DNA of 64,000 nt from Escherichia phage A4: sequence record ON286972; one strand, given 5' to 3'. The notes beneath the pieces are model-generated. The model had not been told where the DNA came from, made no database searches, and worked only from the letters and a program-made list of their open reading frames with translations. Of this stretch, positions 4,541 through 12,335 are shown piece after piece; the first letter of the stretch is position 1, and the number at the start of each line of letters is the position of its first letter. The position numbers and the translations under genes were made by a program.

Positions 4541-4568
4541 TTGATATGAAATTGAAAGATGCTATACT
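4541..4568 (+). promoter_or_regulatory. sigma70-like promoter upstream of the LysM/lysozyme-like gene
   Basis: TTGATA, 16-bp spacer, extended -10 TGcTATACT. Confidence 0.45.
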
Positions 4569-4609: not shown

Positions 4610-4702
4610 AGTATTGTAGAAAGTCCGATGAGGCTTTTGCAAATGGCCTCATAAGCCCTCTTTGTAATTGCTCATCATAACACGCAAACAAAGGAGGCGT
4701 TT

Positions 4703-5629
4703 TTGACAATAGCGATACAAACACCTAAAACTAAGACAGCTATAGGCTTATTAGTTTCACTTGTTATCATCGCTGCGTTTGGATTTTATGGTTTTTCTCA
4801 ACATGATCGTGCATCATCATCGGGCGAAAGTCAGGTGCACAATTTAAAACCGCAAGTTACACAAATTCAAAAGCAGGAATTACCTAAAGGGTATACACCT
4901 AAAGTAGTTCCAGGCAGCGAGAAACATTATACTGTTGAATACGGTGATAGTTATCATTCGATAGCTAAGAAGTTTAAACCGCATAATGTGTTGTTTGAAG
5001 ATTACGTTACAGTATTGAAGAATATCAATCTTAATGCTAAACTTCATACATCGCAGGGTATCTTTATCCCAACAAAAGAGGATTTGAAAGACGTACTGTT
5101 ACCTGATGTGGTAGTACTTTTCGATTATAATGATCCTGAAATAGTTGCACACATCAAAGAAGCTGAAGGTTCAATTGAATTTCAGTCCAAGAACAAAAGA
5201 CGTTTACTTGGGGGAAAAGTTGGAGTTCCTTTCTACAATTCAAAATTTCATCCTTATAAGGATATGAAAGGTAATTATACAATAGGTTATGGACATTACT
5301 TAGGTAAGAACGAATCTGATGCAATTAAGTACAGAAACGGTATTACCAAAGCACAAGCACATAAACTATTACTTCAAGATTTGAAAAGGACATATAATGA
5401 CTTTACAACTCTAATGAAGAAAAAAAATGCAGTAAATCTTACAAAAGACCAACAACGTATTCTCTTTGACATGGCTTACACGATGGGTGTTGATAAGTTG
5501 GCCTCATTTAATAAACTATGGAGAAGTGCTGAAGCTGAAAATCATAAGAAGTTTAAAAGAGAAATCAAAAATTCCTTATGGTATAGGCAAGTAACAAACA
5601 GAGCGGATACTTTGTTAAGCTCAATCTAA
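4703..5629 (+). CDS. membrane-anchored LysM domain plus T4-lysozyme-like (GH24-like) protein
   Basis: TTG start with strong SD AAGGAGG; N-terminal TM helix; LysM-like segment YTVEYGDSYHSIAKKF; C-terminal block YKDMKGNYTIGYGH...WYRQVTNRA matching T4 lysozyme YKDTEGYYTIGIGH...WYNQTPNRA. Confidence 0.7.
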   Translation: MTIAIQTPKTKTAIGLLVSLVIIAAFGFYGFSQHDRASSSGESQVHNLKPQVTQIQKQELPKGYTPKVVPGSEKHYTVEYGDSYHSIAKKFKPHNVLFEDYVTVLKNINLNAKLHTSQGIFIPTKEDLKDVLLPDVVVLFDYNDPEIVAHIKEAEGSIEFQSKNKRRLLGGKVGVPFYNSKFHPYKDMKGNYTIGYGHYLGKNESDAIKYRNGITKAQAHKLLLQDLKRTYNDFTTLMKKKNAVNLTKDQQRILFDMAYTMGVDKLASFNKLWRSAEAENHKKFKREIKNSLWYRQVTNRADTLLSSI

Positions 5630-5643
5630 AAGGAAGGTGAAGT

Positions 5644-5976
5644 ATGCTAAATCTAGTTATTCAAGGTAATGTTGATATTACTCCAGCAATCCATGACGCA
5701 ATTCATCAAGAAGCAAACACTCTAAATAAATTTAGTGATTCTTCAGTACTGAATATTGGTGTTCATGTGAAAAAAGAGCATAAGACACAGTACGCAGTAA
5801 CTTTAACATCAGGTGGTAAGTCTGTTACTGCCGATGATGCAGATTTATACAAGGCGATTGTCGATTCATTCGAAAAAATGGAAACTGTATTCAGTAAAGA
5901 CAAAAGCATTAAATTGCACCGCCGAAACCATCCAGACCGTCCAGTTGTAGTTGATGTAACTGACGAAGAAGAGTAA
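5644..5976 (+). CDS. hpf: ribosome hibernation promoting factor (HPF/YfiA family) homolog
   Basis: 110 aa; N-terminus MLNLVIQGNVDITPAIHDAI parallels E. coli HPF MQLNITGNNVEITEALREFV; similar length and overall pattern. Confidence 0.75.
   Translation: MLNLVIQGNVDITPAIHDAIHQEANTLNKFSDSSVLNIGVHVKKEHKTQYAVTLTSGGKSVTADDADLYKAIVDSFEKMETVFSKDKSIKLHRRNHPDRPVVVDVTDEEE
5742..5753. repeat. 12-bp palindrome TTCAGTACTGAA
   Basis: Inside hpf, in the S-S-V-L-N frame. Confidence 0.8.
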
Positions 5977-5983
5977 TATAATA

Positions 5984-6012
5984 AAGGGACAGATTAATTC
6001 TGTCCCTTTTCT
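5984..6012 (+). terminator. rho-independent terminator after hpf
   Basis: AAGGGACAG / CTGTCCCTT stem, 7-nt loop, TTTCTT tail. Confidence 0.6.
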
Positions 6013-6027
6013 TATGGAGTTTTAATT

Positions 6028-6441
6028 ATGAATTATGCTTGGATGGAAATTGTAAAATCTCTCGTATCAACACATGATGTTGATTTACCAGATAGTCTAG
6101 TGTTTAATAGATGGTACTATCCAAATCCAGAGGACTGTAGGGTTGGAATTGGATTTTTTATTAATGATAAATCTAATTTGATTGGATTAATTGAAGATAT
6201 GAAATCCAACGCAGTATCAATCTCTATTGAGTTTAATGAAGACCACATAAAATACTACGACAATAAAATGGCAGAAGATGATGATGTTATAATCCCTGTA
6301 GATATAGACGAAGCTTCATTTTTTCAGTTATCATTGATTTATGATCTATCTAACATTACTTATGATAATGTGAAAGACCTTTTTATATTGTACAATAAAA
6401 TGTATAATTACTTTTTAAGACCTTTTTATATTGTACAATAA
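6028..6441 (+). CDS. hypothetical protein
   Basis: 137-aa ORF; its 3' end runs through the 43-bp tandem duplication. Confidence 0.5.
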   Translation: MNYAWMEIVKSLVSTHDVDLPDSLVFNRWYYPNPEDCRVGIGFFINDKSNLIGLIEDMKSNAVSISIEFNEDHIKYYDNKMAEDDDVIIPVDIDEASFFQLSLIYDLSNITYDNVKDLFILYNKMYNYFLRPFYIVQ

Positions 6442-6476: not shown

Positions 6477-6662
6477 ATGGAATATACAATAGGTGCAATA
6501 GTATGTATCGCAGCATTATTAGGTGGCATTGGTGTGATGATTTACTTTGATGCAGAACCCAGTACTGAAATGGGTACAACCCTGGAACTCAAACCTGGCA
6601 TTAAGGTGAACGACTCTTACTGTTACGATCCACATAGTAATAAGTATGTGATTTGTTTATGA
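6477..6662 (+). CDS. small membrane protein
   Basis: 61 aa, N-terminal hydrophobic helix, GGAGG RBS. Confidence 0.4.
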   Translation: MEYTIGAIVCIAALLGGIGVMIYFDAEPSTEMGTTLELKPGIKVNDSYCYDPHSNKYVICL

Positions 6663-7069
6663 AAAAGTTTAATATTAAACCGATATTTGATGCTATCGAA
6701 ATTAAATTGAAAGACCAACGAAAACCCGATGGTACTGGTTTATTCTTTAGTTTAGATAGAACCTACGTTGAAACACATGTATCAAGTTTTGATAGAACTG
6801 GTAATCTTTTCATCCGTTCATATAACATGTTTTATAGTGAAGATGTTTTTATGATAGATATCACTTTAGATGAAAGTATAGGTTTGATGTACATTGAAGA
6901 TGTTCAATCAAACGATCAACGAAACGGCACACTTCCTATTGGTGCTACCGAGGAAGAGTTTATGCAATATCAGTTCATTGATGATACCTTTGGTATTGAC
7001 TTTGTGACATATCAGAGTATAATGCGTGTATACGAACAGTATGAGGATTACGTAATTGGACGTTACTAA
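6659..7069 (+). CDS. hypothetical protein (paralog A of a tandem pair)
   Basis: ATG at 6659 overlapping the preceding stop (track starts at TTG 6653); C-terminus homologous to the next gene (QYQFIDDTFGIDF vs QYMFIDDTFSIDY). Confidence 0.55.
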   Translation: MKKFNIKPIFDAIEIKLKDQRKPDGTGLFFSLDRTYVETHVSSFDRTGNLFIRSYNMFYSEDVFMIDITLDESIGLMYIEDVQSNDQRNGTLPIGATEEEFMQYQFIDDTFGIDFVTYQSIMRVYEQYEDYVIGRY

Positions 7070-7478
7070 AATACCCAAATTCAACGAAACGTTAAAGTAC
7101 TTTTCTGAACAAGAGTTCAGTACTGAAAGACGTGGTTTAGTCACATACAACCAATATCGCGTAATGTATACTAACCAGTTACAAGGAACAGTACGTATTA
7201 AAATCCGTAATGCATATGATGATGGTGATGAATTATTAATTATACTAAGAAAAAGTAAGATAGAACTACAATACCATAGATTTGATACTTCCGATGAGTT
7301 TGCATGGAATGTGTTAGAAAAGAAAGTAGGTTCATTGCCTGTAGTTGATGATGGACCTGAAACACTTGATCAGTACATGTTCATTGATGATACATTTAGT
7401 ATTGACTATTCTTCATTTCAGTATATACTATCTATACATAAACAATATGAATCCCGCTTGCGTGACAGATTAATTTAA
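7056..7478 (+). CDS. hypothetical protein (paralog B of a tandem pair)
   Basis: TTG start with GAGGA upstream; C-terminal similarity to the preceding gene. Confidence 0.5.
   Translation: MDVTKIPKFNETLKYFSEQEFSTERRGLVTYNQYRVMYTNQLQGTVRIKIRNAYDDGDELLIILRKSKIELQYHRFDTSDEFAWNVLEKKVGSLPVVDDGPETLDQYMFIDDTFSIDYSSFQYILSIHKQYESRLRDRLI
7116..7127. repeat. 12-bp palindrome TTCAGTACTGAA
   Basis: Inside a CDS, in the F-S-T-E frame. Confidence 0.8.
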
Positions 7479-7621: not shown

Positions 7622-8689
7622 ATGTATAAATTTTATTTTAATGAAAATAACGAGAAGGTATATTTCCATGAAGAATTAGGTATGCGTTTCGAATGGATGC
7701 GTCCCGAAGATTTATCACCAAAATTAATTAAAACATCAAAAACACCTAAAGAACATTTTGATGAAATAATAGAAAAAGGATATAATATTTTAGGATTTGC
7801 TATAACATCAAGTGATGAATGGAAATCTAGTTTTACAAGAACTGTTGTTGAAAAAGATGGTATTATATATACAAAAAGAAATATAAATGATATAAAAACG
7901 AAAGGTATGAAATATATCATTGGGAAATATGACAATGAAAATTATAGATATTATCTTTATAAGACTTCAAAAAGTCTAATGACTGGTGAATGTGAATTAC
8001 TTTTAGAACAACCAATAATTAAAGATAAAAGAACCAAATTAACTTATAAATGCTTAAAATGTGGTCACGTTGATGAAATGGAAATTAGTAATATACAAAG
8101 TGGTCAGGGTTGCTCTATTTGTCGATTTGAAAAAACCAGATTAGCACACGCATTCACCACCGCTGAATTTGTTGAACGAGCAAAAGAAATTCATGGTAAT
8201 GTATATAACTATTCAAAAGTCATCTACATTAATAGTAGCACTCATGTTGAAATAATTTGTAAAAAACATAATAATTCTTTTTATATCATTCCAAATTTTC
8301 ATATAGCAAAAAATAAAAATCAAGGTTGCCCAATATGCTCATCTGAACATACTGAATCCAGAGCTAGTAGAGAAATAACACGTTTTTTAATTGAAAATGG
8401 TATAAAATTTAATAAAGAACAAACATTTAGTGACTGTAAAAATAAAATGTTATTAAGATTTGATTTTTATTTGGTTGATTATGATATTTGTATTGAGTAT
8501 GATGGTAAACAACATTTTGAGAAATCACCTCATTGGGGTGGAGAAGATAAATTGAAAAACATCAAGGATAACGATACTATAAAGACACAATATTGTGAAA
8601 AGAATTTTATTAAATTAATACGTGTAACATATTATGAAGACCACTTAACTGTATTAAAAAAACATCTTTCAGAGGAAGGTATATTATGA
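7622..8689 (+). CDS. putative free-standing endonuclease (zinc-ribbon Cys pairs plus C-terminal PD-(D/E)xK Vsr/DUF559-like core)
   Basis: Several CxxC pairs (CLKCGH, GCSICR, GCPICS); C-terminal FDFYLVDYDICIEYDGKQHF...IKLIRV resembles the endonuclease core of Vsr/DUF559-type nucleases. Confidence 0.5.
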   Translation: MYKFYFNENNEKVYFHEELGMRFEWMRPEDLSPKLIKTSKTPKEHFDEIIEKGYNILGFAITSSDEWKSSFTRTVVEKDGIIYTKRNINDIKTKGMKYIIGKYDNENYRYYLYKTSKSLMTGECELLLEQPIIKDKRTKLTYKCLKCGHVDEMEISNIQSGQGCSICRFEKTRLAHAFTTAEFVERAKEIHGNVYNYSKVIYINSSTHVEIICKKHNNSFYIIPNFHIAKNKNQGCPICSSEHTESRASREITRFLIENGIKFNKEQTFSDCKNKMLLRFDFYLVDYDICIEYDGKQHFEKSPHWGGEDKLKNIKDNDTIKTQYCEKNFIKLIRVTYYEDHLTVLKKHLSEEGIL

Positions 8690-11957: not shown

Positions 11958-12335
11958 ATGGCTGCTAATGAAGTGAAAGCAAAAACTATTCAAGCTATCG
12001 TAGTACTGAAAGGTAAAACCCCATCACCAAAAGAATTGGTTATGGCTGGCATGACTATGCTACATCAGTACAACCCAGCATCCCCTAACTATGTTCAAGA
12101 ATATGAAGCCAAACAGTTTAAAGCTCATTGGGATTCATGGATTAAAGACAATGAACTGGAACAAGTTGTCTATGAAGCAGATGACATGGATGAAATGATG
12201 CAGATTGAATATCTTGCGAATCAGCAGTCAGTACCACTAAGTATGTTTGGTAATGGGGAAGAGGTTCTAGTACTCGGCCCCTTCACTAAAAAAGATATTG
12301 AACACATTGTCACTAACTGTACAAAGATAAGTTAG
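11958..12335 (+). CDS. hypothetical protein
   Basis: 125-aa ORF with RBS. Confidence 0.5.
   Translation: MAANEVKAKTIQAIVVLKGKTPSPKELVMAGMTMLHQYNPASPNYVQEYEAKQFKAHWDSWIKDNELEQVVYEADDMDEMMQIEYLANQQSVPLSMFGNGEEVLVLGPFTKKDIEHIVTNCTKIS

What the first reader, a model, noticed from the sequence alone, without database searches (positions are those of the whole stretch)
5644..5976. Ribosome hibernation factor (HPF/YfiA) homolog encoded by the phage
The 110-aa product aligns along its length with bacterial HPF (MLNLVIQGNVDITPAIHDAI vs MQLNITGNNVEITEALREFV). It has its own RBS and terminator. A phage HPF could silence or protect ribosomes during infection, which is a translational-takeover strategy.
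Basis: partly seen in the sequence, partly recalled or inferred. Interest (0 to 1): 0.6.

Follow-up and report, generated by a model that had tools for sequence, protein, structure and literature searches.

The report
Known phage ribosome-hibernation-factor homolog
A giant E. coli phage carries a small, well-conserved gene for a protein with the fold of the bacterial factors that park idle ribosomes; the gene is real, but it is already annotated and published for this phage group, and nobody has yet shown what it does.

Summary
Window 5644..5976 (+) is a real 110-aa gene with a conserved RBS and terminator. It is under purifying selection (dN/dS 0.12-0.27).

The product passes Pfam Ribosomal_S30AE (40.8 bits against a 23.7 cut-off). 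[quoted passage not shown]

It is not new. The window is a jumbo coliphage related to 121Q and PBECO4. Orthologs are already labelled 'HPF/RaiA family ribosome-associated protein' in RefSeq. The positional ortholog in Cronobacter phage GAP32 was reported as a phage HPF by Mizuno et al. 2019.

What I add:
- It is an old gene of this jumbo-phage lineage in a fixed slot (lysozyme, S30AE, CCA-adding enzyme), not a recent host capture.
- It is equidistant from host HPF and RaiA by sequence, and fails both of NCBI's E. coli-type models.
- Its architecture is RaiA-like: one domain plus a conserved basic-then-acidic tail.
- Only about half of the documented ribosome-contact residues survive.

Ribosome binding is therefore plausible but unproven. 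The only phage HPF tested so far (rV5) did not co-purify with salt-washed ribosomes.

The parts
4541..4568 (+). Sigma-70-type promoter-like site (TTGATA, 16 nt, TG-n-TATACT, extended -10) about 135 nt upstream of the lysozyme gene; probable start of the transcription unit that contains the S30AE gene
   Evidence: Scores 10 of 12 with the TG motif. It is conserved and closer to consensus in UE-S1 (TTGACT ... TGcTATAAT), inside an intergenic region that otherwise has a large indel. The scan count in the region does not exceed shuffles, so conservation is the only support. Function is inferred.
4703..5629 (+). Upstream gene of the same unit: 308-aa lysozyme with an apparently hydrophobic N-terminal stretch (by eye, no membrane-segment prediction was run) and a weak LysM match
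   Evidence: Pfam Phage_lysozyme E = 1.7e-12; PHROG 15410 E = 2.9e-154. Its stop codon TAA at 5627-5629 lies 14 nt before the S30AE start with no terminator between them. The lysozyme-then-S30AE order is conserved in seven phage lineages.
5632..5639 (+). Shine-Dalgarno sequence GGAAGGTG, 4 nt upstream of the ATG
   Evidence: Read directly from the sequence and conserved in six orthologous loci.
5644..5898 (+). Codons 1-85: folded S30AE (HPF/RaiA-type) domain, beta1(2-8) alpha1(14-30) beta2(36-46) beta3(49-56) beta4(59-65) alpha2(68-85)
   Evidence: Pfam PF02482 at 40.8 bits against 23.7. AF2 model with pLDDT 75-91 across the core. Foldseek PDB hits 2ywq, 4hei, 8uu4_w and 6h4n_x with target-normalised TM 0.70-0.76. 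Core dN/dS 0.08-0.27.
5899..5976 (+). Codons 86-110 plus stop: conserved disordered C-terminal tail DKSIKLHRRNHPDRPVVVDVTDEEE, a basic stretch with an RR pair followed by an acidic terminus
   Evidence: pLDDT below 50 for residues 93-110. The motif KDKSIKL-RRNHP..DLTE-EE is conserved in the phage clades. R94 and the terminal E are 100% conserved. R93-R94 align in register with RaiA R95-R96. Tail dN/dS 0.05-0.34. E. coli HPF ends at the position aligned with R93.
5983..6015 (+). Intrinsic terminator: stem AAAGGGACAGA / TCTGTCCCTTT, loop TTAAT, T-rich tail
   Evidence: MFE -18.6 kcal/mol, z = -4.76. Conserved in relatives, with compensatory arm changes in EJP2. A terminator is annotated at the same place in UE-S1 and Munch.

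Best explanation
The gene encodes a single-domain member of the S30AE (HPF/RaiA/pY) ribosome-hibernation-factor superfamily. It has been inherited vertically in one lineage of jumbo myophages (Asteriusvirus, Mimasvirus, Eneladusvirus, Munch-like and Hallingskeid-like phages).

Shown here: the family membership, the fold, the purifying selection, the conserved genomic slot, and the conserved tail.

Inferred: like its cellular relatives, the protein inserts into the channel between the head and body of the host 30S subunit. There it would overlap the mRNA and the A- and P-site tRNA positions, mainly through the basic face of helix alpha2 (K78, K85, K87, K90) and the RR pair at 93-94.

It has no dimerisation domain. 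It carries a RaiA-like extension beyond the end of short HPF. So the most likely outcome is RaiA-like: idle, protected 70S monomers rather than 100S dimers, and competition with host HPF/RMF.

About half of the host factors' contact residues are replaced, so binding is probably weaker or more easily reversed than that of the host factors.

The gene appears to be co-transcribed with the upstream lysozyme gene, from a conserved sigma-70-type promoter to a conserved terminator.

My confidence by step: S30AE fold and family about 0.95; binds host ribosomes at the HPF/RaiA site about 0.6; RaiA-like outcome (70S, not 100S) about 0.35.
For: Family and fold:
- Pfam S30AE above threshold.
- PDB sequence hits are HPF family only.
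- The top 36 Foldseek PDB hits are all HPF, pY, YfiA or RaiA chains, many solved on ribosomes.
- BFVD hits include PBECO4 'ribosomal subunit interface protein' and the GAP32 S30EA protein.

A maintained gene:
- dN/dS 0.12-0.27 in both core and tail.
- Conserved RBS and terminator.
- Gene G+C 36.6% against 36.2% for the window.
- Same slot in seven phage lineages, down to 22-34% protein identity.

Contact residues that are retained (alignment, mapped on contacts reported in bioRxiv 10.1101/2025.10.07.680626):
- K80 to K78, K87 to K85, HPF K89 to K87.
- T53 retained; RaiA K29 to K29.
- RaiA R95/R96, which contact 16S rRNA and uS7, align with R93/R94.

RaiA-like architecture:
- 110 aa, against 113 for RaiA and 95 for HPF.
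- The tail is disordered and ends in acidic residues, as in RaiA.
- The RaiA tail heads toward the RMF site.
- RaiA stabilises inactive 70S, whereas HPF with RMF makes 100S (PMC4889938).

In S. aureus HPF, losing one basic pair does not abolish ribosome binding; only loss of both pairs does. The window protein keeps one residue of each pair.
Against: - No experiment exists for this clade.
- The only phage HPF tested (rV5, a separate clade) was absent from salt-washed 70S and 100S fractions and did not change 100S levels (PMC6375957).
- Several documented contacts are lost. R83, called essential for the m4C1402 network, is T81; Thermus HPF also has T at this position. K91 is I89. K26 is T26. 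The uS9-contacting pair H55/E60 is T55/S60.
- Only 2 of the 7 positions that are basic in both Enterobacterales HPF and RaiA are kept.
- The window protein falls below NCBIfam's general HPF/YfiA cut-off (34.8 against 40.9).
- By profile score the clade is no closer to RaiA (median 43.6 bits) than to HPF (42.0). NCBIfam's HPF model scores slightly higher than the RaiA model for most members.
- A basic stretch after alpha2 is common to the whole family, so the RaiA-like reading rests only on tail length and the acidic end.
Confidence: 0.55

Rival explanations
1. Anti-hibernation decoy. The phage protein is a deliberately weak, easily displaced occupant of the HPF/RaiA site. It, or its tail, keeps host RMF, HPF and RaiA off ribosomes. 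Ribosomes of stressed or stationary-phase hosts therefore stay available for phage mRNAs instead of being locked as 100S.
For: Mizuno et al. proposed that viral HPF competes with cellular homologs to prevent dimers. About half of the contact residues are replaced, which is consistent with lower affinity. The conserved tail points, by analogy with RaiA, toward the RMF site. The rV5 HPF washed off ribosomes at high salt.
Against: This is inferred purely from residue losses, and affinity cannot be read from sequence. It overlaps with the best explanation and differs only in net effect. There are no infection data from stationary-phase hosts.
Confidence: 0.2
2. True HPF-like action. The protein cooperates with host RMF to convert 70S into 100S dimers, shutting down host translation or storing ribosomes.
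For: NCBIfam's E. coli HPF model scores slightly above the RaiA model for most clade members (20.1 against 17.3 for the window; 35-41 against 20-35 for Munch-like proteins).
Against: All scores are far below the HPF equivalog cut-off of 125. The protein extends 15-18 residues beyond the end of short HPF with a conserved, selected tail. In RaiA such a tail is the feature associated with no RMF binding and no 100S. The rV5 HPF did not change 100S levels.
Confidence: 0.1
3. Exapted fold. The protein no longer works on ribosomes and instead binds another RNA or protein, for example phage transcripts, tRNA, or a host factor.
For: Loss of R83, K91, K26 and the uS9-contacting pair, and loss of all three conserved basic residues of alpha1 in the Asteriusvirus clade. 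It falls below the TIGR00741 cut-off. The rV5 result was negative. Weak structural resemblance to dsRNA-binding domains appears at the bottom of the fold list. S. aureus HPF is reported to have a second, non-ribosomal partner (title of PMC9522360, listed).
Against: The alpha2 basic face, T53, K29 and the RR pair are retained and under selection. The more conservative Munch-like sister clade keeps 4 of the 7 shared basic positions and passes TIGR00741, which argues for a continuous ancestral function. No alternative partner is suggested by any data.
Confidence: 0.1
4. Recently captured host hpf or raiA gene carried as a passenger (moron) without a phage-specific role.
For: Mizuno et al. inferred relatively recent transfer for the rV5-type HPFs, which cluster among gammaproteobacterial sequences.
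Against: Only 24% identity to E. coli RaiA, and no significant BLASTP match to E. coli HPF. The composition is that of the phage. An exhaustive phmmer search of 1.8 billion representatives found only 11 hits at E <= 0.001, and no close cellular relative among them. The slot is fixed across phage genera with deep divergence. Purifying selection is evident.
Confidence: 0.02

Closest known systems
Phage-encoded HPF/S30AE proteins of Mizuno et al. 2019 (Nat Commun 10:752), in particular Cronobacter jumbo phage GAP32 gp183 (AFC21633)
   Same: Same Pfam family. Same genomic slot between the lysozyme and CCA-adding enzyme genes. Same single-domain-plus-tail size (111 aa). Structural match E = 6e-7. 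Same jumbo-phage supergroup.
   Different: Very low sequence identity: about 22% in the structural alignment, and not found by tblastn. The rV5-type HPFs in the same paper form a separate clade that my searches did not find.
Annotated orthologs in Asteriusvirus genomes (121Q gp533 YP_009102120, PBECO4, UE-S1, Sharanji WNN14706, phAPEC6, Turkey5)
   Same: 73-88% protein identity, with identical neighbours, RBS and terminator. Already named 'HPF/RaiA family ribosome-associated protein', 'ribosome-associated inhibitor A' or 'sigma 54 modulation protein/S30EA'. Listed as a translation factor in the Sharanji paper.
   Different: The window phage is a distinct genome (82-84% nucleotide identity to the best phage records). 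A 99%-identical protein sits on a 357,761-bp contig labelled E. coli in NCBI.
E. coli RaiA (YfiA, protein Y)
   Same: Fold, total length (113 against 110 aa), a disordered C-terminal extension with an RR pair in the same register and an acidic end, K29, and the alpha2 lysines.
   Different: 24% identity. NCBIfam RaiA model 17.3 bits against a cut-off of 158. R17, R23, K26, R83 and K91 are replaced. Not closer to RaiA than to HPF by profile score.
E. coli HPF (YhbH), short form
   Different: HPF ends at residue 95 with no tail. BLASTP is not significant. NCBIfam HPF model 20.1 bits against a cut-off of 125. The H55/E60 pair that contacts uS9 and R83 are not conserved.
Long HPF of Gram-positive bacteria and Thermus (N-terminal domain)
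   Same: These give the best sequence and structure matches: 9t0z at E = 5e-7, Thermus 6gzx at 5.6e-6, 2ywq at target-normalised TM 0.76. Thermus HPF also has T at the R83 position.
   Different: The phage protein has no C-terminal dimerisation domain. It ends after a 25-residue tail.

Membership tests
Pfam PF02482 Ribosomal_S30AE (HPF/RaiA/pY superfamily) | Profile match at or above the curated gathering score (23.7 bits) | tested here: met
   40.8 bits, E = 3.8e-10, residues 8-87 on profile positions 5-84 of 88.
Pfam PF02482 Ribosomal_S30AE (HPF/RaiA/pY superfamily) | [quoted passage not shown] | tested here: met
   AF2 gives this exact topology at mean pLDDT 77. The Foldseek PDB top 36 are all family members; the best have target-normalised TM 0.70-0.76 and rmsd 2.4-2.7 A.
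Pfam PF02482 Ribosomal_S30AE (HPF/RaiA/pY superfamily) | Conserved basic pairs on both helices (S. aureus K27/R30 and K84/R87; E. coli positions 26/29 and 80/83 by motif register, which is my inference), whose joint loss abolishes ribosome binding | tested here: inconclusive
   The window has T26/K29 and K78/T81, so one residue of each pair is kept. The mutational data are from PMC4889938.
Pfam PF02482 Ribosomal_S30AE (HPF/RaiA/pY superfamily) | Binds the 30S decoding channel and blocks tRNA and mRNA binding | not testable with these tools
   Needs biochemistry or cryo-EM. The only phage HPF tested (rV5) was not retained on salt-washed ribosomes.
NCBIfam TIGR00741 yfiA (HPF/YfiA family equivalog) | Score at or above the curated cut-off of 40.9 bits | tested here: not met
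   34.8 bits for the window protein. Asteriusvirus relatives score 32.5-40.8. Munch-like relatives pass at 50-57.
Short HPF, E. coli type (NCBIfam NF007780) | Equivalog score at or above 125 bits | tested here: not met
   20.1 bits.
Short HPF, E. coli type (NCBIfam NF007780) | About 95 aa, ending shortly after alpha2 with no extension | tested here: not met
   The window protein is 110 aa. It has 15 conserved residues beyond the position aligned with HPF H95.
Short HPF, E. coli type (NCBIfam NF007780) | Promotes 100S formation together with RMF | not testable with these tools
   Needs sucrose-gradient assays.
RaiA/YfiA (NCBIfam NF007654) | Equivalog score at or above 158 bits | tested here: not met
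   17.3 bits. A phage-only HMM scores RaiA and HPF sets equally, with medians of 43.6 and 42.0 bits.
RaiA/YfiA (NCBIfam NF007654) | Single domain plus a flexible C-terminal extension of about 20-25 residues (RR pair, acidic end) beyond the end of short HPF | tested here: met
   The alignment puts R93-R94 on RaiA R95-R96 and an acidic terminus on the RaiA EE..EEE end. The tail is disordered in the model and under selection. This is a resemblance in architecture, not evidence of orthology.
RaiA/YfiA (NCBIfam NF007654) | Stabilises vacant 70S and antagonises RMF/HPF-driven 100S formation | not testable with these tools
   Needs biochemistry.
Long HPF | C-terminal dimerisation domain (total length about 180-190 aa) | tested here: not met
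   The protein ends at residue 110, and the stop codon is followed directly by the terminator.

The most novel reading that the evidence does not exclude
The jumbo-phage S30AE clade may be a remodelled, RaiA-shaped factor that the phage uses against host ribosome hibernation or ribosome-directed defence. It would occupy the decoding channel reversibly while its conserved tail blocks the RMF site. Ribosomes of starved or stressed hosts would then be kept as protected, quickly reusable 70S for phage translation. That would make it a viral counter-measure to hibernation rather than a hibernation factor.
Probability: 0.2. Interest if true: 0.6.

Novelty: already known. Interest (0 to 1): 0.25.

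Why it matters
Phages that carry their own ribosome-hibernation-type factor suggest that viruses manage the pool of idle host ribosomes. This is relevant to how phages infect slow-growing or starved bacteria, and so to phage therapy.

The existence of the gene has been on record since 2012-2019 and is in RefSeq annotation, so this window adds no new kind of element.

What remains open is function. The single published test of a phage HPF was negative. This clade combines a RaiA-like tail with a half-replaced contact surface, which makes it a reasonable but not urgent candidate for a binding and cryo-EM study.

Tried and rejected
- Recent capture from the host: rejected. Identity is low, composition is phage-like, an exhaustive search found no close cellular relative, and the slot is fixed across genera.
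- Assigning the protein to HPF or RaiA by profile scores: no discrimination. A first search with a profile that included E. coli RaiA returned mostly RaiA, but that ranking is biased by construction, so I did not use it.
- Dodecin (Pfam 20.5 bits against a cut-off of 22.5): rejected. It is sub-threshold and the fold search returned only HPF-family structures.
- Anti-phage defence or counter-defence family: no PADLOC match.
- A tRNA-gene context in the window: none found.
- My first reading, that loss of R17 and K23 on alpha1 would cripple binding, was softened. Those residues are conserved in host factors but are not listed as ribosome contacts in the structural preprint.
- Truncated copies in Salmonella phages SD-15_S21, SD-1_S14, SD-2_S15 and SD-6_S16 could indicate gene decay. 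However, the neighbouring genes in the two loci I inspected (SD-15_S21, SD-1_S14) are fragmented too, so assembly quality cannot be excluded.
- Literature searches for an experimental study of this clade found only annotation-level mentions.
- Several database calls failed on queue limits and were repeated.

Full report
**The observation**

- A Shine-Dalgarno sequence GGAAGGTG lies at 5632-5639, 4 nt before the start. It is conserved in six orthologous loci.
- Directly after the stop there is a hairpin at 5983-6009, followed by TTTTCTTAT counted from the end of the G+C core. It folds at -18.6 kcal/mol, z = -4.76 against shuffles.
- The hairpin is conserved in relatives. In phage EJP2 both arms have changed in a compensatory way.
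- The simple scan reported the hairpin only on the minus strand, because it extended the stem into the T-run.
- dN/dS against six Asteriusvirus orthologs is 0.12-0.27, with both the folded part and the tail constrained.

So this is a real, maintained gene with its own translation start and a terminator.

**Family and fold**

- Pfam Ribosomal_S30AE matches at 40.8 bits (gathering score 23.7), E = 3.8e-10, over nearly the whole profile.
- A phmmer search of PDB sequences returns only HPF, pY and YfiA chains at E below 0.1. The best are a long HPF (9t0z, 5e-7) and Thermus HPF.
- An AlphaFold2 model (mean pLDDT 77) has the order beta1-alpha1-beta2-beta3-beta4-alpha2, followed by a disordered tail from about residue 86.
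- Foldseek against the PDB gives HPF-family chains as the top 36 matches, many solved on ribosomes. The best have target-normalised TM 0.70-0.76 and rmsd 2.4-2.7 A.

One correction: the similarity to E. coli HPF itself is not significant pairwise (BLASTP E = 1.4). E. coli RaiA gives E = 0.001 with 24% identity over 79 residues.

**What genome this is, and what is already known**

The surrounding 4 kb matches 35 jumbo coliphage and Salmonella phage genomes of the 121Q/PBECO4 group (Asteriusvirus) at 81-84% nucleotide identity.

tblastn finds the protein in 42 phage records. Several of them already call it one of the following:
- 'HPF/RaiA family ribosome-associated protein' (RefSeq 121Q gp533, PBECO4, UE-S1)
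- 'ribosome-associated inhibitor A' (phAPEC6, Turkey3)
- 'ribosome hibernation promoting factor' (Turkey5)
- 'sigma 54 modulation protein/S30EA'

A 99%-identical protein with the HPF/RaiA name sits on a 357,761-bp contig labelled E. coli.

The Sharanji genome paper lists the ortholog among translation-related genes, without experiments (PMC11895373).

Mizuno et al. 2019 reported phage-encoded S30AE/HPF in rV5-like coliphages and in the jumbo Cronobacter phage GAP32 (AFC21633). They expressed the rV5 protein in E. coli and did not find it in salt-washed 70S or 100S ribosomes. 100S levels did not change. They speculated that viral HPF competes with host factors to prevent dimers (PMC6375957).

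In the GAP32 record, AFC21633 lies between the lysozyme gene and the CCA-adding enzyme gene, the same slot as in the window. The existence of this gene in this phage group is therefore already known.

**Evolutionary picture**

The order lysozyme, S30AE gene, a few small ORFs, CCA-adding enzyme, NUDIX, glutaredoxin is conserved in:
- Asteriusvirus
- Salmonella phage Munch and relatives
- Erwinia phage Hallingskeid
- Eneladusvirus
- Mimasvirus XbC2 and GAP32

Protein identity to the window falls to 22-34% across these. A RaK2-like Klebsiella phage has the same neighbourhood but no detectable S30AE ORF.

The gene's G+C content equals that of the window. An exhaustive phmmer search over 1.8 billion representative proteins finds only 11 hits at E <= 0.001. 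About half are long proteins matched in many short stretches, which I did not examine and take to be spurious.

This is an old, vertically inherited phage gene, not a recent host capture.

**HPF-like or RaiA-like?**

By sequence the question cannot be decided.
- NCBIfam's E. coli-type equivalog models score 20.1 (HPF, cut-off 125) and 17.3 (RaiA, cut-off 158).
- The general HPF/YfiA model scores 34.8, below its cut-off of 40.9.
- The Munch-like sister clade passes the general model at 50-57 bits.
- A phage-only HMM scores Enterobacterales RaiA and HPF sets equally, with medians of 43.6 and 42.0 bits.

By architecture the protein resembles RaiA. E. coli HPF ends at residue 95, whereas the phage proteins continue with a conserved tail, KDKSIKL-RRNHP..DLTE-EE.
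- The tail's RR pair aligns in register with RaiA R95-R96.
- Its end is acidic, like RaiA's.
- The Mimasvirus and Eneladusvirus proteins, although very divergent, keep the same layout of a basic stretch followed by an acidic terminus.

According to a structural preprint on Gram-negative hibernating ribosomes, RaiA R95/R96 contact 16S rRNA and uS7. The RaiA tail runs toward the RMF site, and its last dozen residues are disordered (bioRxiv 10.1101/2025.10.07.680626).

RaiA stabilises inactive 70S, whereas HPF with RMF makes 100S (PMC4889938).

A basic stretch after alpha2 is common to the whole family. So the RaiA-like reading rests on tail length and the acidic end only.

**Is the ribosome-binding surface intact?**

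I aligned 31 phage proteins, 83 RaiA and 107 HPF sequences and mapped the published contacts.

| Host position | Window residue | Status |
|---|---|---|
| K80 | K78 | kept |
| K87 | K85 | kept |
| HPF K89 | K87 | kept |
| T53 | T53 | kept |
| RaiA K29 | K29 | kept |
| RaiA R95/R96 | R93/R94 | kept |
| R83 (m4C1402 contact) | T81 | lost; Thermus HPF also has T here |
| K91 | I89 | lost; a lysine follows at 90 |
| K26 | T26 | lost |
| H55/E60 (uS9 contact) | T55/S60 | lost |

Of the seven positions that are basic in both host families, the window protein keeps two. The Hallingskeid-like clade keeps three and the Munch-like clade four.

In S. aureus HPF, mutating either helix's basic pair leaves ribosome binding intact, and only the quadruple mutant abolishes it. 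By motif register (my inference) the window protein keeps one residue of each pair.

Binding is therefore plausible, perhaps weaker than for host factors. It cannot be decided from sequence.

**Expression unit**

Only 14 nt separate the stop of the upstream lysozyme gene (4703..5629; Pfam Phage_lysozyme) from the S30AE start. No terminator lies between them.

A sigma-70-type promoter with an extended -10 lies at 4541-4568. It is conserved, and closer to consensus, in UE-S1, within an otherwise rearranged intergenic region.

I infer a bicistronic unit from this promoter to the terminator at 5983-6015. Timing of expression is unknown.

**Verdict**

The finding is correct and ordinary in the sense that it is already annotated and published. 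The mechanism I consider most likely is RaiA-type occupation of the 30S decoding channel, giving idle, protected 70S and competing with host RMF and HPF. The contact surface is partly remodelled.

The main rival is that the same binding serves to counter host hibernation rather than impose it.

No experiment addresses this clade, and the one related experiment was negative.

Noticed in passing
window 7622..8689 (+): A 355-aa ORF with a treble-clef zinc-finger domain (DUF4379, E = 2e-7) and a weak DUF2726-like C-terminus sits immediately upstream of the CCA-adding enzyme gene, with its stop codon overlapping that gene's start. In most relatives the nucleotide match stops at about window 7628 and the CCA gene follows the small ORFs directly. 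This looks like an insertion specific to this phage, and perhaps to TH47; it may be a homing-endonuclease-like selfish gene.
   Followed up: partly
window 4628..4655 (+), 5' leader of the lysozyme gene: An inverted repeat GATGAGGC-TTTTGCAAAT-GGCCTCAT lies between the promoter-like site and the lysozyme RBS. It is almost perfectly conserved in UE-S1 although the flanking leader has diverged and carries indels. It may be a regulatory RNA structure.
   Followed up: no
window 6653..7069 and 7056..7478 (+); also 6028..6441: The two ORFs downstream of the S30AE gene are tandem paralogs (BLASTP E = 4e-10) sharing a C-terminal FIDDTF-ID...QYE motif. The ORF at 6028..6441 is only marginally similar to them (E = 0.039). 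Function is unknown, and each belongs to an unannotated PHROG.
   Followed up: partly
window 11958..12335 (+): A 125-aa ORF gives a sub-threshold match to peptidyl-tRNA hydrolase PTH2 (20.6 bits against a cut-off of 23, E = 5e-4). If real, this would be another translation-related gene near the CCA-adding enzyme, NUDIX and glutaredoxin genes.
   Followed up: no
L011 1501-1725 (Salmonella phage SD-15_S21); L012 (SD-1_S14); also SD-2_S15 and SD-6_S16: In these Salmonella Asteriusvirus records the S30AE gene is shortened. One is a 74-aa product that appears, from comparing its sequence with the 121Q ortholog, to lack the segment holding strands beta2 and beta3. The others retain only C-terminal fragments. 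In the two loci I inspected the neighbouring lysozyme gene is fragmented too, so this may be assembly error rather than gene decay.
   Followed up: partly
L013 5540-6992 (Klebsiella phage KP13-7, Alcyoneusvirus): The RaK2-like relative keeps the thymidine kinase ... CCA-NUDIX-glutaredoxin neighbourhood. A 300-aa unannotated ORF occupies the lysozyme gene's place, but there is no S30AE-like ORF. A 150-aa hypothetical protein occupies the slot, which implies loss or replacement in that genus.
   Followed up: partly
P0001 (protein), from a 357,761-bp contig labelled Escherichia coli in NCBI: The closest relative of the window protein (99% identical; R93 is H) lies on a phage-genome-sized contig filed under E. 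coli. The best named phage genomes are only 82-84% identical in DNA. The window's phage therefore seems to be represented publicly only inside a bacterial assembly.
   Followed up: no
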